The notes: a model not told the origin generated them from the sequence alone. A stretch of 61,107 nt of DNA from Candidatus Hydrogenedens sp. (GCA_049968235.1 JBMFRC010000018.1:1-61107); one strand, 5' to 3'; positions 40,072 through 51,484 are shown, counted from the first letter of the stretch. A program made the numbers and translations.

Positions 40072-41760
40072 GTGCCCAAAGCCTATCTGGTTAAAGAGGA
40101 TGATGGAGAAAAATTCCCGGTTCATTCTCATTTAATCATAGGAAGAACAAAAGAGTGTAATATTGTAATTGAAGACCCCGCAGTGTCCCGTAAGCATTTT
40201 GAACTTGTCAGGAGTGAGGATAGTTATAAATGGAAGGATATGGGTAGTACCAATGGGACATTCGTTAATGGACAGAAAATGTTATCAGGTGAATTACATT
40301 CCGGGGATATGATTCAAATAGGGAAGACCCTTTTCCGATTTGAAATAGAGGAAAATAGTAAACCGACAAGAACCTCAGAAACGATAGGAGAAAAAGAAGA
40401 ACAACATTCTATTGTTGCACATTCTTTCCTTAGTATGGATGAAACTACGGTTTCTCCCGGGAAAGAACAACACGCAACCCTATTATTGGAGACCCTATGT
40501 AAGGTAATTAATGACATTTCTACCAATTTTGACCTTTGTGAATTACAAAATAAAATTATGGAAGCGACTTCCCATGTAATCCCTATAGACCATGGTGCTA
40601 TTCTGATTACTGACGAAGAAGGGAAAATACTTCCCTGTCCACAATGTTCCCGGGTACACCAATGGGAGGGAGGGCATCTGGTTGCTGTTCCTGTAAATCG
40701 CGTTCGTATCAGTAATACCATTATTTATAAGGTGGTGAAGGAACGACAGAGTTTGCTTTATCAGGACATTATGGACAATGATGACTTAAAGAGGGCAGTG
40801 AGTATTATTTCATTAAATGTGCAATCGGTTATTTGTGTTCCACTTCGTGCCAAAGAAAAAGTATTAGGCTTACTTTATATGGATACGGTCTCGGATAAAA
40901 ACCGATATTCGGCAGAAGAATTACTACTTGCTTCCGCAGTTGGAAATGCTTCCGGGTTAGCAATCGAAAATGTGAATATTTATCAGGAATTAATTGAAAA
41001 ATATAGGATGGAACAAGAACTACAAACAGCAGCAACAATTCAGCAGGGTTTCCTATTCAATAATTGGAGTTCTATTCCTAAAAATTGTGATATATTTGCC
41101 CAGACTTTTCCAGCAAAAGTAGTTGGGGGCGATTTCTTTGATGTAATATTGCTTCCCGAGAATCGTTTAGGTTTTATAGTAGGGGATGTTTCGGGCAAAG
41201 GAATGCCAGCTTCCCTTGCTATGGTGCGATTACTTACAGAATTTCGTATACAAGCCCAGCGACTATTATCACAAATAGAAGTACTTAAGGTCCTTAATGA
41301 AGACCTGTTCGAATATGGGCAACAAGGAATGTTTTGTTCCTTGTGTTATGTTGTCGTTAATCTAAAGACAGGCGAAGTTACCGCTGTAAATGCAGGGCAT
41401 CTACCCGTTTTATGGTGGCAAAATCATAAAACCGAATATTGTTTCCATCCATCAGGTCCTCCCTTAGGGGTTTTACCGAATACTGTATGGAAGGAAGAAA
41501 AAGACATCTTATCTAAGGAAGATGCCCTTATCATATTTACAGATGGAATTATTGAAGCCCGAAAAGAAGCCAATGATAAAGAAATAACAGATAGAGAATT
41601 TGGGATTGACAGATTAAAAAAGACTATCGAAAATTTACATTTTGAAAATGCAGAGAAGGCGGTTCAGAGTATCTTACAAAAAGTACAGAAATATACCGAA
41701 CCCAATCTTCCTCATGACGATTGCACACTATTACTATTCCGGTGGTTAAATCATGCGTGA
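40072..41760 (+). CDS. FHA-GAF-PP2C (SpoIIE/RsbU-type) serine phosphatase
   Basis: FHA domain GRTKECNIVIEDPAVSRKHFEL…STNGTFVNG; central GAF; PP2C GDVSGKGMPASLAM…DGIIEA. GTG start with GGAGAG Shine-Dalgarno. Confidence 0.8.
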   Translation: MPKAYLVKEDDGEKFPVHSHLIIGRTKECNIVIEDPAVSRKHFELVRSEDSYKWKDMGSTNGTFVNGQKMLSGELHSGDMIQIGKTLFRFEIEENSKPTRTSETIGEKEEQHSIVAHSFLSMDETTVSPGKEQHATLLLETLCKVINDISTNFDLCELQNKIMEATSHVIPIDHGAILITDEEGKILPCPQCSRVHQWEGGHLVAVPVNRVRISNTIIYKVVKERQSLLYQDIMDNDDLKRAVSIISLNVQSVICVPLRAKEKVLGLLYMDTVSDKNRYSAEELLLASAVGNASGLAIENVNIYQELIEKYRMEQELQTAATIQQGFLFNNWSSIPKNCDIFAQTFPAKVVGGDFFDVILLPENRLGFIVGDVSGKGMPASLAMVRLLTEFRIQAQRLLSQIEVLKVLNEDLFEYGQQGMFCSLCYVVVNLKTGEVTAVNAGHLPVLWWQNHKTEYCFHPSGPPLGVLPNTVWKEEKDILSKEDALIIFTDGIIEARKEANDKEITDREFGIDRLKKTIENLHFENAEKAVQSILQKVQKYTEPNLPHDDCTLLLFRWLNHA

Positions 41761-42190
41761 TGACTTTACAATTACTTTTCGTTCACATCCAAAACTATTA
41801 AAGCCTGTTCGGGCTTTAGTTCGTAATTACCTTGAGATGGCTCGTTTTTCACAGGATAAGATTGAGGATATTGTTTTAGGACTGGATGAAGCCTGTACAA
41901 ATTGTATTCGACATGCGTATCATGGGGCAAAGTCAGGAATTATTCAGTTATCCGCACGATTAGGAACGGTATGGCTGGAATTTGAATTACAGGATTGCGG
42001 AACATGTCCCCCTAAAGATTTTTTGCTTAGAGAAAAAAGAAAAAATATAACGTCTGAGAATCTAAAACCTCATGGACTCGGACTTATTATATTAAAAAGA
42101 GCCTTTGATGAAGTTTCTTTTCACATAAACGAGAATGGTGAAAACTGTTTGATATTAAGAGCACGAAGAAAAGCATTCAGGAAAGGTTAA
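41753..42190 (+). CDS. Anti-sigma-factor-type serine kinase (RsbW/SpoIIAB-like HATPase)
   Basis: LDEACTNCIRHAY N-box and G-box HGLGLIILKRAF; overlaps the phosphatase gene by 8 nt. Confidence 0.75.
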   Translation: MRDDFTITFRSHPKLLKPVRALVRNYLEMARFSQDKIEDIVLGLDEACTNCIRHAYHGAKSGIIQLSARLGTVWLEFELQDCGTCPPKDFLLREKRKNITSENLKPHGLGLIILKRAFDEVSFHINENGENCLILRARRKAFRKG

Positions 42191-42193
42191 CTA

Positions 42194-42517
42194 ATGTCGA
42201 TTGATATTCACACAATAGAAAAGGATGGAAATTATAAAATTCAGGTGTCCGGTCAGGTAGATTTGTATACATCTCCCAATCTGAGGAAAGCCATTCTGGA
42301 GTCTGTCGATAAATCAAAAGGTTCGGTTATTGTACAACTATCCCATGTAGAATATATGGATTCTTCCGGAGTTGCCACATTGGTAGAAGGACTTCGTTCT
42401 GCCACAAAACAAAAGAAATCATTCCAACTTTTATCCCCTTCTCATGCAGTTCGGAAAGTATTAAATCTATCGCGATTGGAAACGGTATTCACAGTCACAG
42501 AAAGTGATGAAGAATGA
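42194..42517 (+). CDS. STAS-domain protein (anti-sigma-factor antagonist type; positioned like MlaB)
   Basis: VEYMDSSGVATLVE with the conserved phosphorylatable Ser in DSSG; 107 aa. Confidence 0.8.
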   Translation: MSIDIHTIEKDGNYKIQVSGQVDLYTSPNLRKAILESVDKSKGSVIVQLSHVEYMDSSGVATLVEGLRSATKQKKSFQLLSPSHAVRKVLNLSRLETVFTVTESDEE

Positions 42518-43311
42518 TTAAGTATTTTTTGGGCAGTATAGGTCGAACTTTCTTAAATATTTTACATTCTGGACTTGTCGTTTGTGTTTTAATTATGGAT
42601 ACATTGAATTGGTTATTTTTGCAACCTGTATTAGGTCGAGGGTTAAGGTGGCGTAGTGCAGTGGAACATTTTGTAGAATATGGATTTCACTCAATACCAA
42701 TAGTCGGTTTAATTTCTTTACTGGTTGGGGTTATTATGGGGATGCAATCTGCATATACATTACAACAATGGGGTGCTACGATATTTATGGCAAATCTGGT
42801 AGGAATTTCAGCATTACGAGAATTAGCACCGTTAATGTCTGCCATTCTTATTACAGGGCGGAGTGGTTCCGCGATTACTGCCGAAATAGGAACTATGAAA
42901 GTTTCAGAAGAAGTCGATGCTCTAATGGTGATGGGACTGAACCCTGTTAAATTTTTAGTTGTCCCAAAGTTTTTAGGGATGGTAATTGCTGTTCCCTGTG
43001 TTACAGTGCTTTCGATGGCTATAATGATTGGAGGGGGATTTATCGTAGCGGTGGGTATTCTCGGTATTGATTTCTGGGCATACTTCGACCAGACCGCAAG
43101 TGCTTTAGTTCCTAAAGATTTATTTTCGGGTATGGTCAAGAGCGTATTTTTCGGCTTAACTATTTGTTGGGTCGGTATCTATCGTGGTTTTCAGGTCGAA
43201 GGAAGTGCGGAAAGTGTCGGTAAAATGACCACTTCTTCCGTTGTTACTTCTATTTTTACCATAATAATTGTAGATTTAGTCTGGACAGCCTTATTTTACT
43301 TTACGGAATGA
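42514..43311 (+). CDS. mlaE: MlaE-family ABC transporter permease
   Basis: About 5 TM segments with the MlaE-type EVDALMVMGLNPVKFLVVPKFLG segment; ATGA overlap with the STAS gene. Confidence 0.8.
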   Translation: MIKYFLGSIGRTFLNILHSGLVVCVLIMDTLNWLFLQPVLGRGLRWRSAVEHFVEYGFHSIPIVGLISLLVGVIMGMQSAYTLQQWGATIFMANLVGISALRELAPLMSAILITGRSGSAITAEIGTMKVSEEVDALMVMGLNPVKFLVVPKFLGMVIAVPCVTVLSMAIMIGGGFIVAVGILGIDFWAYFDQTASALVPKDLFSGMVKSVFFGLTICWVGIYRGFQVEGSAESVGKMTTSSVVTSIFTIIIVDLVWTALFYFTE

Positions 43312-44114
43312 TGAATAACAATAACAATGAATATATAATTGAAGTAGAGAACCTTGTCGTTCAGTATGGAACAAGGCGGGTTCTGGATAATATCTCTTTT
43401 AAAGTAAAAAAAGGAGAGATATTTGTTATTTTAGGGGGAAGTGGATGTGGCAAAAGCACTCTTTTACGGACACTGGTAGGTCTAATTCGTCCCCACTCCG
43501 GAAAAATTATAATGTTTGGCAAAGATGTTACTACAATGAGCACTCAGGAACAAATAGAACTTCGCAAACGGATAGGTATGTGTTTCCAGAATTCCGCTTT
43601 ATTTAATTCTATGACTGTGGGTGAAAATGTCGCCTTACCATTAAAGGAACATACCCGTCTTGCGGAATCGACCATCGATATTATGACACAAATTAAATTA
43701 GATCTGGTGGGACTGGGTGGTTGCGCAAATCTGTATCCATCACAATTAAGTGGTGGAATGAAAAAAAGAGCCGGTATTGCACGGGCTATGGCTTTAGACC
43801 CGGAAATTATATTTTATGACGAACCCTCCTCCGGTCTTGACCCTATCGTTGCTGCGGGTTTAGACTATCTTATCCGAAAGATGCAGAATACCTTTAATTT
43901 AACCAGTGTCGTGGTTACTCACGATTTGGAAAGTGTTCAAATTATTGCAGACCGAGTTTGTCTATTGCATGCAGGAAAAATCGTTGCAATTGGCGATTTA
44001 AAGGAAATGGAATTAAATACCGATTCCTATCTCCGCCAATTTTTTACACGAACACCGACTCCGGAAGAAAATCAATCTCCTTCCACAATTTTAGATTCTT
44101 TTGAAGATATGTAA
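43308..44114 (+). CDS. mlaF: MlaF-type ABC transporter ATP-binding protein
   Basis: Walker A GGSGCGKST, signature LSGGMKKR, Walker B IIFYDEPSSGLD. Confidence 0.85.
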   Translation: MMNNNNNEYIIEVENLVVQYGTRRVLDNISFKVKKGEIFVILGGSGCGKSTLLRTLVGLIRPHSGKIIMFGKDVTTMSTQEQIELRKRIGMCFQNSALFNSMTVGENVALPLKEHTRLAESTIDIMTQIKLDLVGLGGCANLYPSQLSGGMKKRAGIARAMALDPEIIFYDEPSSGLDPIVAAGLDYLIRKMQNTFNLTSVVVTHDLESVQIIADRVCLLHAGKIVAIGDLKEMELNTDSYLRQFFTRTPTPEENQSPSTILDSFEDM

Positions 44115-44148
44115 TAATAAAACAAATAAAAAGATATGGTGGTTTAAG

Positions 44149-45180
44149 ATGAATTCAAAAGCGAGTGAATTTACAAAAAAGGAAATCATTGCGGGCTTCT
44201 TCATCCTGATTAGCATTGTTGTCCTTGTGTCTTTTATCCTTTTGGTGCGGGGTTATCGCCCAAATGCAGGAACAAAAATCTATTACGCCAAATTTAAAAA
44301 TACATTAGGTTTGGACCGCGGTGCAGATGTGCGTTTTGGTGGGTTAAAAATTGGGAAAGTTACGGATATTTATCCCGATAGAGAGGACCCAAGTCAGGTG
44401 TGTGTTAAATTATCTATATCTCCAGAGATTGTCTTAAATCAAAAATGTATTGCCACAGTAGAGCAAGTTTCTCTAACCTCAGCGAGGCACCTTGAAATTT
44501 CAACAGGAGAAGCAAATGCCCCTAAGTTAGAAGATGGAAGTATAATACCTTCTATAAACAAAACGGGTAGTTTGGTAGAACTCCCTGATTTTTCAAGCAC
44601 AATTAAAAAAGTGGAGAAACTTTTAGATGATTTGACAGATTTTTTGGGTATGGATGAACTCCATAAGGCAGAAGCGACAAAAGAAACCAAAGCACGAGTT
44701 ACCGAACTGACTCAACAAATCAGTGGAACTTTAGAAAAGGGCACTGATTTTATTGAAGAACTTAATAGCCTGGTCAAAGAACAAAAACCCCAAATTGCAG
44801 ATATTTTGAAAAACATTAATGATATAGAAAAAGATACAAAAAAAGTTGTAGAACAGGTAAATACGATAATTTCAGAAAATCGAGGCTCGATACATGACTC
44901 ATTGACATCCGTAAAAGATATTATGGCAAAGGTAAAATCCATATCAGATAATAGTGCAGATGATTTAGAAAAAATATTAAATAATATAGAAAAGATTACG
45001 GGAAATGTGGATAATTTGTCCTCCGAAGCAAAAAATTGGATGAGTAAAAATAAAAGAAATATTGATGAACTTATTCTGGATATTAAAGAAACCATTCGTA
45101 ATTTGCGTCTACTGTCTCAAACTTTAGCAGAACAACCTCAATCTATACTTACAGGGAAAGTCCCGGGAGGTAAAAAATAG
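44149..45180 (+). CDS. mlaD: MlaD/MCE-domain protein with long C-terminal coiled coil
   Basis: N-terminal TM IIAGFFILISIVVLVSFI, then MCE domain (YYAKFKNTLGLDRGADVRFGGLKIGKV). The alternative start at 44101 would overlap mlaF. Confidence 0.75.
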   Translation: MNSKASEFTKKEIIAGFFILISIVVLVSFILLVRGYRPNAGTKIYYAKFKNTLGLDRGADVRFGGLKIGKVTDIYPDREDPSQVCVKLSISPEIVLNQKCIATVEQVSLTSARHLEISTGEANAPKLEDGSIIPSINKTGSLVELPDFSSTIKKVEKLLDDLTDFLGMDELHKAEATKETKARVTELTQQISGTLEKGTDFIEELNSLVKEQKPQIADILKNINDIEKDTKKVVEQVNTIISENRGSIHDSLTSVKDIMAKVKSISDNSADDLEKILNNIEKITGNVDNLSSEAKNWMSKNKRNIDELILDIKETIRNLRLLSQTLAEQPQSILTGKVPGGKK

Positions 45181-45181
45181 A

Positions 45182-45784
45182 ATGTTTTTTTCTCTTCTTT
45201 ATACAAAAATTCATCGACAGGAAAGTATATATCTTTTAGGTTGCATTTGTATTGTAGTCATTTTTTCTGGTTGTATATCAGGACCCTCTTTGCATTATTA
45301 CACTCTGGAAAATACAATTAAACCTATAGAGGATACATCTCCGCTATGTATTCAGGTAGCAAGTATCCGTTTAGCAGAGTCACTAAAACGAAAAGAGATA
45401 ATGGTCCGGAAAAATTCAGTTCAGGTGGATTATTACTCTGTTCATCTATGGGCTTCGAGTTTAGAGGAATTAATAACAAATAAAATAAATCAGACTTTTT
45501 TGTGTTATCAATCTGAAAAAAAATTACCGGATTATTATTTACATATTGATGTACTTAATTTTGAAGAAGTTGAAACATCGAATTCCCCTATTGCGTATGT
45601 TAAATATGTTGTCCAATTTTTAAATCCGGGGAATATGGAAGTTTTAGCCCAAAAGATTTATTCCATAGAAAAAGAATCTACCAGTAAAGGTGTCCCTGAA
45701 TTGGTAAAAACTTTTTCAAGTTGTGTTGATGAAATAATAAATAAAATATATGCAGATGCCAGGAATATTAATAAACCCGAATAG
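45182..45784 (+). CDS. ABC-transport auxiliary lipoprotein (DUF330-like) of the Mla/MCE operon
   Basis: Lipobox IFSGC; about 200 aa, sited directly after the MCE gene as in many mce loci. Confidence 0.5.
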   Translation: MFFSLLYTKIHRQESIYLLGCICIVVIFSGCISGPSLHYYTLENTIKPIEDTSPLCIQVASIRLAESLKRKEIMVRKNSVQVDYYSVHLWASSLEELITNKINQTFLCYQSEKKLPDYYLHIDVLNFEEVETSNSPIAYVKYVVQFLNPGNMEVLAQKIYSIEKESTSKGVPELVKTFSSCVDEIINKIYADARNINKPE

Positions 45785-46627: not shown

Positions 46628-47977
46628 ATGTATATGAAAAATCACCATACATTGTCAAGAAGAGAGTTTATTAAAACTGCATCCATCATTCCACCTTCCC
46701 TATCCATAGGTATCCTGTTAAATCAGACGCAACATATAAAAGAAAAAGCAAGAATTGGAGTTGTAGGAGTAGGTAATCGAGGCCACTTCTTAGTTGATTT
46801 ACTAACGCAATGTTCTGATGTTGAAATACGGGCTATTGCGGACATAAAAAAAGAACATGCAGAACGAACAAAATCATTGTGTGCGCAGAGACAAAATTTT
46901 GTTCCGGAGATTTACACAAAAGGAGAAACAGACTTTGAAAAATTGGTGAAGCGAGAAGATATTGATTGTGTCTTGTGTGCTACTTCGTGGGAATGGCATA
47001 CACCGGTGGCTTTATCCGCTATGAAGGCGGGAAAACTGACTGCCCTTGAAGTCCCACCTGCAACAACACTCAAGGAGTGTCGAGCATTAATTGAGACTTC
47101 AGAGAAACAAAAGTATCCTTGTTTTATATTGGAAAATGTATGTTACTTTAAAGAACCATTAACGATTCTTCGAATGATACGAGAAGGTTATTTTGGTGAA
47201 GTGGTTTTTGCAGAAGGTGGATACCAGCATGATTGCCGATTCCTGTTAGCGGATGAGACGGGTAAATTAAATTGGCGTGGTAAAGGAATTATTAACAGAG
47301 TAGGCAACACTTACCCTACTCATCCTATAGGACCTATTTCCCAATGGTTTAATATAAATCGGTGAGACCGTTTTATTTCCTTGTATAGTGTTTCAACTCC
47401 TTCTTTAGGTATCCATGAATATTTTGTAAAAAAATATGAACCGGAACATGAGCTATCAAAAATGAAGATAAAACATGGCGATATAAATACCACGATACTA
47501 CAGACATTTTTAGGTAAGACCATTACCTTATATCACGATACATCATTACCACGACCCTATGACTCTATTTTTAGAGTTCAGGGAACAAAAGGGATTTATT
47601 TTGGCTCTTTACAAAAAATATATTTGGAAGATGTAAGTCCGCAAAAAGATACCTGGGAAGATTTTGAACCATATACAAAAAAATATGCCCATCCAATTTG
47701 GTCTGCTTATGAATCAGCAGGGGGTTCTACTGCGGGGCATGGATTAGGTGATTTCATTACTGTGCGAGAATTGGTTCGTGCTATTCGAACAGGAGAAACA
47801 TCTCTTCCGGATGTTTATGATTCGGCTACATGGTCGGCTATTATTGAACTATCAGAGCAATCCGCTTCTGCTGGTGGAAAGAAAGTCGATTTTCCTGATT
47901 TCACAAATGGGCGTTGGAAAACCAATCAACCCATCCCTGTTATTCAATTACCCCAACAATGGCTTGCTTCTTGTTGA
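46628..47977 (+). pseudogene. Gfo/Idh/MocA-family NAD-dependent oxidoreductase with Tat signal (GH109-like), interrupted by a single in-frame TGA at 47363-47365
   Basis: Tat motif SRREFIK; RIGVVGVGNRGHF Rossmann region. The ORF track gives two pieces (46628-47365 and 47381-47977) in the same frame, 753 nt apart; the C-terminal domain continues directly after the stop. Confidence 0.6.
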
Positions 47978-49821: not shown

Positions 49822-50250
49822 TTAAGTACTAATGGACTGATTGGTATTCTTTAAACGGTTACAAAGAATATGGATAATGTTTAACAGTAAACGAACAGCT
49901 GTTTTTTTCGTTAATAATCTTTCAAAACTTGTCTCACTGAATACTAACAAGGAACTATCCATAATCGCTTTTGCCGTCGCAGACCGAGGTTGCTTTGTTA
50001 ATAAAGCCATCTCTCCAAAAATTTCTCCTTCTCCTAACTGAACAATTTCCTTCTCCCCCTGATATATCCCGATACTTCCTTGAATGATGAGATATACCTG
50101 GCTCCCGATGCTTCCCTGATAGAAAATCACCTCATCTTTTTGAAAATGGACAACCAGCCCCTGCTTCATGAGTTTATGAACTTCTTCAGGATGCAATCCC
50201 TGAAAAAGATGAGGACTAACTATTTGCTCTTCAATCTTTTTTTTATCCAT
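49822..50250 (-). CDS. Stand-alone cyclic-nucleotide-binding (CAP effector) domain protein
   Basis: GEGEIFGEMALL…RSATAKA phosphate-binding cassette; no HTH follows. Confidence 0.8.
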   Translation of the reverse strand: MDKKKIEEQIVSPHLFQGLHPEEVHKLMKQGLVVHFQKDEVIFYQGSIGSQVYLIIQGSIGIYQGEKEIVQLGEGEIFGEMALLTKQPRSATAKAIMDSSLLVFSETSFERLLTKKTAVRLLLNIIHILCNRLKNTNQSIST

Positions 50251-50273: not shown

Positions 50274-51131
50274 TTAAATCCAATAGACGAACCGTCTGCA
50301 TGTAGGGCATGTATATAAATTGTCGGTTTCCTGTCGAACACGTTGAACAAAATCTGTATGCAGAGCCATATAACACCCGTGGCAACGGTCTCCCTCAATG
50401 GGAACAACTGCAGGGGGTTTTTTCATTTTCAACTTATCATAATGTTGTAGGGTTTTCTCTGAAATCAATGAACGAAGATTATCAATTTTCATCTGTATCT
50501 GTTTTTTACCCCGTGCATTATTTTTTAACTCTTCTTCGTGTAGTTGTAAACGGATGAGTAAATGAATTTCCGGAAAGGGTGAAGATATTGTTACAGGTTT
50601 TTCTTCATTAACAGAGATTTTCTTTTTAGGATGGATTAATTTAGAAGGCTCATCCGATTTAGTAAGAAGTTCCAATAATTTATCATAGATGGCTTTGGCT
50701 GTAGTCAGTTTCATGACTGCCTGAATATTTTCTTTTTTATGAAACACAGTAGAAATACTTGAGGCTAAACTTAAGTAAATAGAATTTTGTGTCGGCGGAT
50801 AACAAATCATAATGGCAAAGAAAACAGGTTTGCGGTCCTGAGCCACAAAATCAATTCCATCAGGAATACGAGCCACCGCTGTCATTACTTTGTTTAAATC
50901 ACGAACACTTGCATGGGGTAAAGCCAGACCATTACCGAGCCCGGTACTGTCAACCGATTCTCTTTCAATTATTGCAGATAGAATATTTACTCCTTCGGGT
51001 ATTTTATTTTCCTTTTCAATAGCATCAACTAATGAAGCGATAACTTCTTGTTTCGATTTAGGTTCAAGTGATGGGATAATTGTTTTAATGTTAAAATATT
51101 TGTCAAATTCCATATATTGTCCCTTTTTCAT
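50274..51131 (-). CDS. PTS EIIA type-2 (PtsN/EIIA-Ntr-like) domain fused to a coiled-coil and C-terminal C4 zinc ribbon (zf-RING_7/DUF164-like)
   Basis: N-terminal 150 aa with LGNGLALPHA active-site His. C-terminal CHGCYMALHTDFVQRVRQETDNLYTCPTCRRFVY matches the CxxC…CxxCgR-ILY zinc-ribbon pattern. Confidence 0.6.
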   Translation of the reverse strand: MKKGQYMEFDKYFNIKTIIPSLEPKSKQEVIASLVDAIEKENKIPEGVNILSAIIERESVDSTGLGNGLALPHASVRDLNKVMTAVARIPDGIDFVAQDRKPVFFAIMICYPPTQNSIYLSLASSISTVFHKKENIQAVMKLTTAKAIYDKLLELLTKSDEPSKLIHPKKKISVNEEKPVTISSPFPEIHLLIRLQLHEEELKNNARGKKQIQMKIDNLRSLISEKTLQHYDKLKMKKPPAVVPIEGDRCHGCYMALHTDFVQRVRQETDNLYTCPTCRRFVYWI

Positions 51132-51283
51132 AGGTTTATCTTTATCATAGATTTGTATAAATAACTATTAATATTATTATATTTTATATCAACCTATTTC
51201 CAATTGAAAGATTCTCTCCGGAATGATTCAAAAAATATACAAATAGAATAGGAATATCTCTCTCCTAAGAAATCTAATTTCTT

Positions 51284-51484
51284 TTAGACTTCGCTTTCCT
51301 GATAAAGAATAGTAACAACAATAATCGTTTCCTGGTCTCTACCATCATGTCTTATAGTAGAGCAGGGGCATTGTGTAATTTGCAGGATTTTAGGACGGGT
51401 TCGTTTTATCCAGTCATTAATTAGACTATCCATTTGGTGAAGACCTTCCACGCTCGCTTTTCCAATAAAACTCTGCACCCTCAT
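51284..51484 (-). CDS. Small hypothetical protein (66 aa), possibly Cse60/DUF2758-like
   Basis: Pattern V..F……E.L…..LIN.W…..KILQITQ…….ETIIVVTILYQE loosely matches the Cse60 small-protein pattern (from memory). Confidence 0.25.
   Translation of the reverse strand: MRVQSFIGKASVEGLHQMDSLINDWIKRTRPKILQITQCPCSTIRHDGRDQETIIVVTILYQESEV

What the first reader, a model, noticed from the sequence alone, without database searches (positions are those of the whole stretch)
50274..51131. Novel-looking fusion: PtsN-type EIIA domain plus coiled coil plus C4 zinc ribbon (HP0958/zf-RING_7-like)
The N-terminal ~150 aa carry the EIIA-Ntr/fructose-type fold signature, with the active-site His in GNGLALPHA. The C-terminal ~35 aa, CHGCYMALHTDFVQRVRQETDNLYTCPTCRRFVY, fit the C4 zinc-ribbon found at the end of DUF164/HP0958-like coiled-coil proteins. 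PtsN is encoded in rpoN operons, and HP0958 is an RpoN chaperone in Helicobacter. A covalent fusion of these two sigma-54-associated modules is therefore intriguing. I have not seen this architecture described
Basis: partly seen in the sequence, partly recalled or inferred. Interest (0 to 1): 0.6.

Follow-up and report, generated by a model that had tools for sequence, protein, structure and literature searches.

The report
PtsN-like EIIA fused to zinc ribbon
This is a real, conserved gene of Hydrogenedentota bacteria that joins a phosphate-sensing PTS regulatory domain to the zinc-ribbon end of a protein family associated with RNA polymerase; the same pairing occurs in both domain orders in several phyla, has only a generic annotation, and may link the PTS directly to the transcription machinery.

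Summary
ORF 50274-51131 (-) encodes 285 aa, probably 279 from Met7. It has a PTS_EIIA_2 domain (93 bits) and a C-terminal Zn_ribbon_9 domain (30.8 bits, cut-off 29.1). A profile of the C-terminal 100 residues matches CT398 and HP0958 at E about 1e-14 and 1e-13. AlphaFold gives two confident domains joined by a disordered linker, and the nearest solved folds are EIIA-Ntr/PtsN.

The architecture is not rare. It was found in 80 Hydrogenedentota species genomes. It also occurs in Spirochaetota and Auribacterota. The reversed order (zinc ribbon, then EIIA) occurs in Kiritimatiellia, Lentisphaerae and Verrucomicrobiota. All copies carry generic "PTS IIA" names, and I found no paper describing the fusion.

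Only the last ~90 residues of the DUF164 family are present. The long coiled coil reported to bind RpoN is missing. No rpoN, HPr or EI gene lies near the gene in about 1.1 Mb of related loci. The sigma-54 reading is therefore unsupported here.

Arg57, His73 and the four cysteines are invariant. In Hydrogenedentota a stand-alone cNMP-binding gene follows in about 85% of loci.

Best reading (inferred): a phospho-His-controlled adaptor that docks on the transcription machinery or on RNA through the zinc ribbon.

The parts
50274..51131 (-). Gene for the EIIA-linker-zinc-ribbon fusion protein (285 aa by the longest ORF; the likely start is the ATG at 51113, giving 279 aa)
   Evidence: ORF list. It is identical to NCBI protein P0001, 'PTS sugar transporter subunit IIA [Candidatus Hydrogenedens sp.]'. 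Met7 is invariant, and AAGGGA lies at 51125-51120.
50676..51098 (-). PTS_EIIA_2 domain (residues 12-152), closest to EIIA-Ntr/PtsN
   Evidence: Pfam 93.3 bits. PDB profile hits to PtsN 4gqx, 3urr, 2a0j and 1a6j. Foldseek TM 0.86-0.90.
50913..50915 (-). Codon of His73, the predicted phospho-acceptor in GNGLALPH. Arg57 and Glu58 (codons 50958-50963) are also invariant.
   Evidence: These residues are invariant in A1, A2 and A4. The equivalent Arg, Glu, Pro and His are invariant in the reversed-order family.
50571..50657 (-). Variable linker rich in Lys, Pro and Glu (residues ~159-187), predicted to be disordered
   Evidence: No conservation in A1 or A2. pLDDT is below 50 for residues 162-185.
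50421..50570 (-). Short helical module (helices 188-204, 209-221 and 225-237). It is homologous to the end of the DUF164 coiled coil plus the connecting helix.
   Evidence: AlphaFold2 pLDDT about 90. It aligns to CT398 149-190 and HP0958 143-190. Leu195 is invariant.
50280..50408 (-). C4 zinc ribbon (residues 242-284; Cys250, Cys253, Cys275, Cys278)
   Evidence: Pfam Zn_ribbon_9. The four Cys are invariant. Profile hits to CT398, HP0958 and MSMEG_4306.
51176..51203 (-). Sigma-70-type promoter-like site (TTGGAA-16-TATAAT) in the 152-nt intergenic region upstream
   Evidence: Consensus scan, 10 of 12 matches. This is a pattern match only.
49822..50250 (-). Stand-alone cNMP-binding protein (142 aa, no DNA-binding domain), 23 nt downstream on the same strand; a probable operon partner
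   Evidence: Pfam cNMP_binding 79 bits. It matches CRP positions 13-137 only. A homologue sits in the same position in 66 of 78 Hydrogenedentota genome loci and in L011 at 44% identity of the fusion.
51284..51484 (-). Conserved 66-aa ORF upstream on the same strand, with no known family
   Evidence: It is called as a gene in related contigs. A homologue lies within 400 nt upstream in 41 of 73 loci. There is no Pfam or NCBIfam hit.

Best explanation
Shown: the gene encodes a soluble two-domain regulator. The N-terminal EIIA domain is of the PtsN/fructose-mannitol class, and its catalytic Arg57 and phospho-acceptor His73 are invariant. A disordered linker of about 25 residues follows. The C-terminal ~100 residues form a 'mini-DUF164': a helix-turn-helix, a connecting helix and a C4 zinc ribbon. 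This part is homologous to the last ~90 residues of HP0958, CT398 and MSMEG_4306. The protein is conserved across the phylum Hydrogenedentota, where a stand-alone cNMP-binding protein gene usually follows it. The same two modules are also fused in the opposite order in PVC-group bacteria.

Inferred mechanism: the EIIA domain is the input. It is phosphorylated on His73 by an HPr/NPr-type carrier and so reports the PEP-dependent metabolic state. The zinc-ribbon module is the docking or output end. It holds the sensor on the partner that DUF164 proteins use, most likely RNA polymerase or a sigma factor, or possibly RNA. The phosphorylation state would then alter transcription or mRNA fate. In Hydrogenedentota the co-transcribed cNMP-binding protein probably adds a cyclic-nucleotide input by binding the fusion.

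The protein is not a sugar-transport component.
For: Domain identity and fold. Arg57, Glu58, Pro72, His73 and the four Cys are invariant across about 32 subfamily representatives at 21-85% identity, and the EIIA residues are invariant across 118 sequences. The equivalent residues are invariant in the reversed family. This points to selection for phospho-acceptor chemistry and for zinc binding. Fusion in both orders, EIIA then zinc ribbon and zinc ribbon then EIIA, is the classic sign that two modules work together. No EIIB or EIIC genes lie in any neighbourhood. The gene pair with the cNMP-binding protein is conserved in 66 of 78 loci, with gaps mostly of 1-190 nt. Literature on the docking module: the zinc-ribbon cysteines of HP0958 are needed for RpoN accumulation (PMC3372290). 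CT398 forms a complex with RpoN and core RNAP (as cited in PMC5947703). MSMEG_4306 co-purifies with the RNAP beta subunit and with DNA (PMC7092591). AlphaFold3 models place the zinc ribbon of ML1638 and CT398 on the beta-prime shelf and jaw (bioRxiv 10.64898/2026.07.15.738315).
Against: No EI, HPr/NPr or HprK gene was seen in the window or in about 1.1 Mb of related loci. I could not read whole Hydrogenedentota genomes, so the existence of a phosphorelay in these organisms is unproven. Docking of the zinc ribbon on RNAP rests on a preprint's structure predictions plus co-purification data from distant homologues. HP0958 has also been reported to bind mRNA (my own knowledge), so the partner could be RNA. 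The second conserved His of PtsN is an invariant Tyr119 here. The genomic context outside Hydrogenedentota is not conserved and gives no functional hint.
Confidence: 0.42

Rival explanations
1. Sigma-54-specific reading: the protein is a PtsN-coupled RpoN chaperone or regulator. It would link PTS-Ntr phosphorylation directly to sigma-54 stability or activity.
For: HP0958 and CT398 bind or stabilise RpoN. ptsN lies in rpoN operons in proteobacteria (PMC13104625). DUF164 and RpoN co-occur in many phyla, including Spirochaetes and Verrucomicrobia. One Kiritimatiellae locus with the reversed fusion has rpoN about 8 kb upstream on the same strand.
Against: The N-terminal coiled coil that carries RpoN binding in CT398 is absent; only residues equivalent to ~143-235 are present. 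No rpoN or enhancer-binding-protein motif occurs in the window or in 97 loci, apart from the non-adjacent case above. The -24/-12 promoter consensus is not enriched in the window: 1 match against 0.21 expected, and 19 of 100 shuffles do as well. DUF164 proteins also exist in Actinobacteria, which lack RpoN.
Confidence: 0.15
2. Post-transcriptional regulator: the zinc ribbon binds specific mRNAs, and the phosphorylation state of EIIA controls their stability or translation.
For: The zinc-ribbon domain of DUF164 proteins is predicted to bind nucleic acids. JGI labels some reversed-order members 'PTS IIA (Ntr-type)/predicted RNA-binding'. HP0958 has been reported to bind flaA mRNA (my own knowledge, not checked here).
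Against: No RNA-binding data exist for any fusion member. No conserved RNA element was found nearby, and Rfam gave no hit in the window. More recent evidence for the family points to RNAP.
Confidence: 0.15
3. PTS-independent sensor: the EIIA fold is used as a ligand- or protein-binding regulatory domain without phosphotransfer, and these organisms lack a PTS.
For: No PTS genes were seen in any locus. EIIA-like folds do occur in non-PTS proteins; Foldseek also hits the cytoplasmic domains of SLC4 anion exchangers. The second His of PtsN is Tyr here.
Against: Arg57, Glu58, Pro72 and His73 are invariant across all subfamilies and both domain orders. That is hard to explain without phospho-His chemistry.
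Confidence: 0.12
4. Database reading: an ordinary EIIA subunit of a sugar PTS transporter.
For: The NCBI and JGI names say so. The best NCBIfam hit is the fruA IIA domain.
Against: That hit scores 68.7 bits against a cut-off of 103.5. No EIIB or EIIC genes lie in any neighbourhood examined. The closest solved folds are the regulatory EIIA-Ntr. The protein has a fused zinc-ribbon output domain.
Confidence: 0.03

Closest known systems
EIIA-Ntr / PtsN (E. coli 1a6j, Burkholderia 3urr and 4gqx, Neisseria 2a0j)
   Same: Same fold (TM 0.86-0.90, rmsd 2.0-2.5 A). These are the best sequence-profile hits in the PDB. Arg57 and His73 are conserved, at the numbering I recall for E. coli PtsN. Both are soluble regulators rather than transport proteins.
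   Different: Scores 65 bits against the TIGR01419 cut-off of 138.7. The second conserved His is Tyr119. It carries a ~125-residue C-terminal extension. It is not in an rpoN operon.
DUF164 / COG1579 proteins: H. pylori HP0958 (FlgZ), C. trachomatis CT398 (CdsZ), M. smegmatis MSMEG_4306
   Same: The C-terminal ~90 residues are homologous: the end of the coiled coil, the connecting helix, and a CxxC-x21-CxxC zinc ribbon. As in canonical members, the zinc ribbon is at the C-terminus.
   Different: The ~140-residue antiparallel coiled-coil hairpin, which is the RpoN-binding part in CT398, is replaced by an EIIA domain and a linker. Scores 31 bits against the CdsZ cut-off of 275. There is no NIF3 (COG0327) neighbour.
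Reversed-order Zn_ribbon_9-EIIA proteins of Kiritimatiellia, Lentisphaerae and Verrucomicrobiota (e.g. P0090, P0299, P0340)
   Same: The same two modules, a similar size (271-297 aa), and the same invariant Arg/Glu, Pro/His, Tyr and four Cys. They are also uncharacterised and generically named.
   Different: The domain order is swapped, with the mini-DUF164 at the N-terminus. There is no cNMP-binding neighbour. In a crude tree their EIIA domains form a separate clade.
Wolinella succinogenes WS2117, a NIF3-DUF164 fusion
   Same: It is the only DUF164 fusion discussed in the literature I found. It shows that the module is recruited into multidomain proteins.
   Different: The partner domain is NIF3/DUF34, not EIIA, and the full coiled coil is retained according to the paper's description.

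Membership tests
Pfam PTS_EIIA_2 (PF00359) superfamily | HMM score above the gathering cut-off over the full domain | tested here: met
   93.3 bits against 27; residues 12-152 cover profile positions 2-141 of 144.
Pfam PTS_EIIA_2 (PF00359) superfamily | Active-site His in G-x-G-x-A-x-P-H and the conserved upstream Arg | tested here: met
   GNGLALPH73 and Arg57 are invariant in A1, A2 and A4.
Pfam PTS_EIIA_2 (PF00359) superfamily | EIIA mannitol/fructose/Ntr-type fold | tested here: met
   The AlphaFold2 domain has pLDDT of about 90. Foldseek TM 0.86-0.90 to EIIA-Ntr and 0.78-0.82 to EIIA-Mtl.
Pfam PTS_EIIA_2 (PF00359) superfamily | Phosphorylation by HPr/NPr | not testable with these tools
   This needs biochemistry. 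No HPr or EI gene lies in the accessible DNA.
PtsN / EIIA-Ntr equivalog (TIGR01419, NF008145) | Score above the curated equivalog cut-off | tested here: not met
   65.1 bits against 138.7, and 42.4 bits against 221.
PtsN / EIIA-Ntr equivalog (TIGR01419, NF008145) | Gene located in the rpoN-hpf-ptsN-rapZ-npr cluster | tested here: not met
   The neighbours are the HIT gene, shikimate dehydrogenase, the 66-aa ORF, the cNMP-binding gene and an SSF symporter. There is no RpoN box in the window or the loci.
PtsN / EIIA-Ntr equivalog (TIGR01419, NF008145) | Single-domain protein of about 150-165 aa | tested here: not met
   285 aa with a second folded domain.
DUF164 / COG1579 (HP0958, CT398/CdsZ, MSMEG_4306) | C-terminal Zn_ribbon_9 domain with CxxC-x18-26-CxxC | tested here: met
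   Pfam 30.8 bits against 29.1. The motif is CHGC-x21-CPTC. Module profile against CT398 E 2.7e-14 and against HP0958 E 3.1e-13.
DUF164 / COG1579 (HP0958, CT398/CdsZ, MSMEG_4306) | Long N-terminal antiparallel coiled-coil hairpin (about 130 A, two helices of about 80 residues) | tested here: not met
   Only about 50 helical residues precede the ribbon. The alignment starts at CT398 residue 149 and HP0958 residue 143. Description of the canonical structure.
DUF164 / COG1579 (HP0958, CT398/CdsZ, MSMEG_4306) | Score above the NCBIfam CdsZ equivalog cut-off | tested here: not met
   31.4 bits against 275.
DUF164 / COG1579 (HP0958, CT398/CdsZ, MSMEG_4306) | Binding to RpoN, RNA polymerase or RNA | not testable with these tools
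   Literature on canonical members only.
Sugar-PTS EIIA subunit (database annotation) | Cognate EIIB/EIIC permease genes in the same operon or fused | tested here: not met
   None within +/-10 kb in any of the loci annotated with Pfam.

The most novel reading that the evidence does not exclude
The fusion is a metabolic sensor docked on RNA polymerase. The mini-DUF164 zinc ribbon would anchor a phosphorylatable PtsN-type domain on the beta-prime jaw/shelf region, so that PTS phosphorylation state (and, in Hydrogenedentota, a cyclic nucleotide acting through the partner protein) directly tunes sigma-factor use or initiation. By Rosetta-stone logic, separate PtsN and DUF164 proteins in other bacteria would then also interact. 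That would give a physical explanation for the long-unexplained placement of ptsN in rpoN operons.
Probability: 0.18. Interest if true: 0.8.

Novelty: new variant of a known kind. Interest (0 to 1): 0.5.

Why it matters
PTS-Ntr was named for the position of ptsN beside rpoN. A recent review of PTS-Ntr mentions no zinc-ribbon or fused form of PtsN and describes no physical link to sigma-54 or RNA polymerase. DUF164 proteins are widespread, associated with RNAP or RpoN, and mechanistically obscure. A PtsN-like domain is fused to the zinc-ribbon end of DUF164 in both orders. Named members come from Hydrogenedentota, Spirochaetota, Auribacterota, Kiritimatiellia, Lentisphaerae and Verrucomicrobiota. 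That is strong comparative evidence that the two modules work together. It turns a vague association into a testable interaction hypothesis. It also shows that hundreds of database entries named 'PTS sugar transporter subunit IIA' are probably regulators, not transport components. For Hydrogenedentota it defines a phylum-wide gene pair, the EIIA-zinc-ribbon protein plus a stand-alone cNMP-binding protein, as a candidate point where signals are integrated.

Tried and rejected
- The first AlphaFold2 run used only 14 close homologues and failed on the EIIA domain (pLDDT below 50). I repeated it with 118 sequences.
I repeated it with the narrower alignment A5. That run therefore recovered essentially only Hydrogenedentota.
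- The first cluster-member look-up for the spirochaete-type proteins returned no organism names.
- The afdb50 fold library was unavailable, so I could not find cultured-organism UniProt entries with this architecture.
- Motif searches for the RpoN box, the HPr His15 loop, the EI active site, HprK and enhancer-binding-protein motifs found nothing real. The only hit was a P-loop in an ABC ATPase; one search found nothing.
- The sigma-54 promoter consensus search gave one match, which is not above chance.
- Rfam found nothing in the window.
- A neighbour-joining tree of EIIA domains put the fused EIIAs in at least four clades interleaved with stand-alone EIIAs. The tree has no support values, so it does not settle how many independent fusion events occurred.
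- A terminator-like hairpin inside the 3' end of the gene (50285-50297) was dismissed. It has a 5-bp stem and a poor T tract.
- An artefactual gene fusion or misassembly was rejected, because the ORF is intact in 97 loci from independent assemblies.

Full report
**What is at the coordinates**

The minus strand carries an intact ORF at 50274..51131 encoding 285 aa. It is identical, from Met7 on, to an NCBI protein from a Candidatus Hydrogenedens MAG. That protein's longest contig is 61,107 bp, the same length as the window, and it is named 'PTS sugar transporter subunit IIA'.

Met7 is invariant among homologues, whereas residues 1-6 vary or are absent. The ATG at 51113 has an AAGGGA element 6 nt upstream; the ATG at 51131 has none. 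The real product is therefore probably 279 aa. Residue numbers below follow the 285-aa ORF.

**Domain content**

- Pfam finds PTS_EIIA_2 at residues 12-152 (93.3 bits, cut-off 27).
- Pfam finds Zn_ribbon_9, the renamed zf-RING_7/DUF164 ribbon, at residues 249-281 (30.8 bits, cut-off 29.1).
- NCBIfam finds no family above its cut-off. PtsN scores 65 against 139, the fruA IIA domain 69 against 104, and CdsZ 31 against 275.
- A family profile matches solved EIIA-Ntr/PtsN structures over residues 10-149 and CT398 over 191-284.
- A profile of the C-terminal 100 residues alone matches CT398 149-235 (E 2.7e-14), HP0958 143-234 (E 3.1e-13) and MSMEG_4306 179-258 (E 3.4e-6).

With a 118-sequence alignment, AlphaFold2 gives mean pLDDT 85. 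The model shows:
- an EIIA domain at 1-160;
- a disordered linker at 162-185;
- three helices at 188-204, 209-221 and 225-237;
- a zinc ribbon at 242-284.

Foldseek ranks EIIA-Ntr structures first (TM 0.86-0.90) and also recovers HP0958.

Only the last ~90 residues of a DUF164 protein are present. The canonical protein has two helices of about 80 residues forming a ~130 A hairpin (PMC5947703). Here an EIIA domain and a linker replace that hairpin.

**How common the architecture is**

The first word-indexed search found only 16 relatives, all from Hydrogenedens. An exhaustive profile search of 1.84 billion cluster representatives found about 40 clusters at 50% identity that are full-length fusions of 252-292 aa. 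Pfam confirmed both domains in samples of these.

A profile of 32 of them retrieved more than 100 clusters at 90% identity carrying PF00359+PF02591. Most are 272-aa proteins, and the two with organism names are from Spirochaetota MAGs. Another subgroup includes Candidatus Auribacterota.

A scan of one genome per GTDB species with the C-terminal motif confirmed 102 loci. The 80 kept are almost all titled Hydrogenedentota. A few carry other titles, such as Nitrospirales, FCB group or Bathyarchaeia; these may be mislabelled bins, which I did not check. Every complete ORF among them has both the EIIA active-site motif and the ribbon.

The exhaustive search also exposed the reverse architecture: a short helical segment plus Zn_ribbon_9 at residues ~70-113, followed by EIIA at ~137-282. 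A profile of six such proteins returned 2,077 hits at E<=1e-25. The 120 listed all carry both domains. Named members come from Kiritimatiellia, Lentisphaerae, Verrucomicrobiota and Opitutae.

All these proteins carry only generic PTS-IIA names. Full-text searches found no paper that mentions the combination. A 2011 survey of 349 DUF164 proteins reported only three with any additional domain and named only a NIF3 fusion. A 2026 PTS-Ntr review does not mention a zinc-ribbon form.

**Conservation**

Across 32 representatives at 21-85% identity the invariant positions are Arg57, Glu58, Pro72, His73, Asp99, Leu195 and the four cysteines. Arg57, Glu58, Gly66, Pro72 and His73 remain invariant in 118 sequences. 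The equivalent Arg, Glu, Pro, His and four Cys are invariant in the reversed family.

In the alignments to Burkholderia and Neisseria PtsN, a His of those proteins aligns with Tyr119 here. I take this to be the second conserved His of PtsN, His120 in E. coli numbering (my own knowledge). The linker is not conserved.

**Genomic context**

In the window the gene is preceded by a 66-aa ORF of unknown family. A 142-aa protein follows after 23 nt. That protein consists only of a cNMP-binding domain and matches CRP positions 13-137, so it has no helix-turn-helix. A sigma-70-like promoter match lies in the 152-nt upstream gap.

The block of 66-aa ORF, fusion gene and cNMP-binding gene is retained where the flanking synteny breaks (L008). 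It is also retained in a relative with 44% identity (L011).

Across the genome loci, a cNMP-binding homologue lies directly downstream on the same strand in 57 of 78 cases by a strict test. Nine more fit once over-long ORF calls or a 285-nt gap are allowed for, giving 66 of 78. The 66-aa ORF is detectable upstream in 41 of 73.

Outside Hydrogenedentota the gene stands alone among unrelated neighbours. No EIIB or EIIC gene occurs in any neighbourhood. No RpoN box, HPr, EI, HprK or enhancer-binding-protein motif occurs in the window or in about 1.1 Mb of loci. The -24/-12 consensus is not enriched. One Kiritimatiellae locus has rpoN about 8 kb upstream, separated from the fusion by six genes. 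One Lentisphaerae locus also has a separate 151-aa EIIA next to a Na+/H+ exchanger.

**Interpretation**

Shown:
- The protein is a conserved two-domain protein with an intact phospho-acceptor site and an intact zinc site.
- Its two modules have been joined in both orders in different phyla.
- The part of DUF164 that is kept is the ribbon plus the base of the coiled coil.

Literature on canonical DUF164 proteins ties this region to RpoN accumulation. It also ties the family to complexes with RpoN-RNAP and secretion-ATPase regulators, and to co-purification with the RNAP beta subunit and DNA in mycobacteria. In AlphaFold3 models the region is tied to anchoring on the beta-prime shelf and jaw.

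Inferred: the EIIA domain is the input, phosphorylated at His73 by an HPr/NPr-type carrier. The ribbon module is the docking end on the transcription machinery or on RNA. The Hydrogenedentota-specific cNMP-binding partner adds a second input.

I give this general model about 0.4. I give the sigma-54-specific version about 0.15, because the coiled coil mapped as the RpoN-binding part is missing and no rpoN linkage is seen. The remaining weights are about 0.15 for an RNA-binding regulator, about 0.12 for a PTS-independent sensor and about 0.03 for the annotated sugar-transport role.

**Comparison, novelty and verdict**

By domain the protein belongs to the PTS_EIIA_2 superfamily and carries a genuine Zn_ribbon_9. 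It fails the tested membership criteria for PtsN proper: equivalog score, operon position and single-domain form. It also fails them for DUF164/CdsZ proper: long coiled coil and equivalog score.

It is best described as a member of an uncharacterised fusion family, a new variant built from two known kinds. The finding is real. The recurrent fusion in both orders is nevertheless a useful and apparently unpublished clue to what PtsN-type and DUF164-type proteins do together. Interest 0.5.

The main gap is that I could not read whole Hydrogenedentota genomes. Whether they encode EI, HPr, RpoN or a canonical DUF164 remains the decisive open check.

Noticed in passing
window 51284-51484 (-): A 66-aa ORF directly upstream of the fusion gene. 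It is called as a gene in all close relatives, and a homologue is detectable upstream in 41 of 73 Hydrogenedentota loci. It has no Pfam or NCBIfam match. It may be a third component of the locus.
   Followed up: partly
window 47363-47365 (+), inside 46628-47977: The GFO_IDH_MocA / Glyco_hydro_109 gene is one 447-aa ORF in relatives (L003). In the window an in-frame TGA interrupts it where the homologue has Gly (NINR*DRF against NINRGDRF). This is a nonsense mutation, a sequencing error or a pseudogene.
   Followed up: partly
L095/L096 10001-10837; L097 10001-10888; proteins P0064, P0076, P0088, P0090, P0104, P0109: An abundant reversed-order family (short helices plus Zn_ribbon_9, then EIIA) in Kiritimatiellia, Lentisphaerae and Verrucomicrobiota. 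It may explain the 'second DUF164 protein' that Pereira et al. 2011 noted in Opitutus terrae. I did not verify that.
   Followed up: partly
L097 1390-1845 (-): In the Lentisphaerae contig a separate 151-aa EIIA_2 protein sits next to a Na+/H+ exchanger gene. This recalls the regulation of the K+/H+ antiporter YcgO by PtsN in E. coli (title of PMC11808508). That genome therefore has both a stand-alone and a fused EIIA.
   Followed up: no
window ~40072-45784 (+); L003 15336-20858: By synteny with L003, a partner-switching set (FHA-GAF-SpoIIE phosphatase, HATPase_c_2 anti-sigma-type kinase, STAS protein) lies directly beside MlaE/MlaF/MlaD-type lipid-transport genes, about 5-10 kb from the fusion gene. 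I did not run Pfam on the window ORFs themselves.
   Followed up: no
L018, L029, L031, L034, L040, L041, L043, L064, L092 and others: Several contigs that carry the Hydrogenedentota-type gene are titled 'uncultured Nitrospirales/Nitrospiraceae', 'Bathyarchaeia archaeon', 'Rhodothermaeota' or 'FCB group'. These are probably mislabelled or contaminated bins.
   Followed up: no
L002 2772-4272: The SSF symporter gene downstream of the cNMP-binding gene is split into 377-aa and 119-aa ORFs in one assembly of the same organism. It is intact (500 aa) in the window and in L001.
   Followed up: no
L024, L027, L037, L039, L041, L049, L051, L054, L063, L068, L082, L093: Twelve Hydrogenedentota loci have no detectable cNMP-binding homologue downstream of the fusion, nor anywhere within about 8 kb. 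I did not check whether they form one clade or have a different partner.
   Followed up: no
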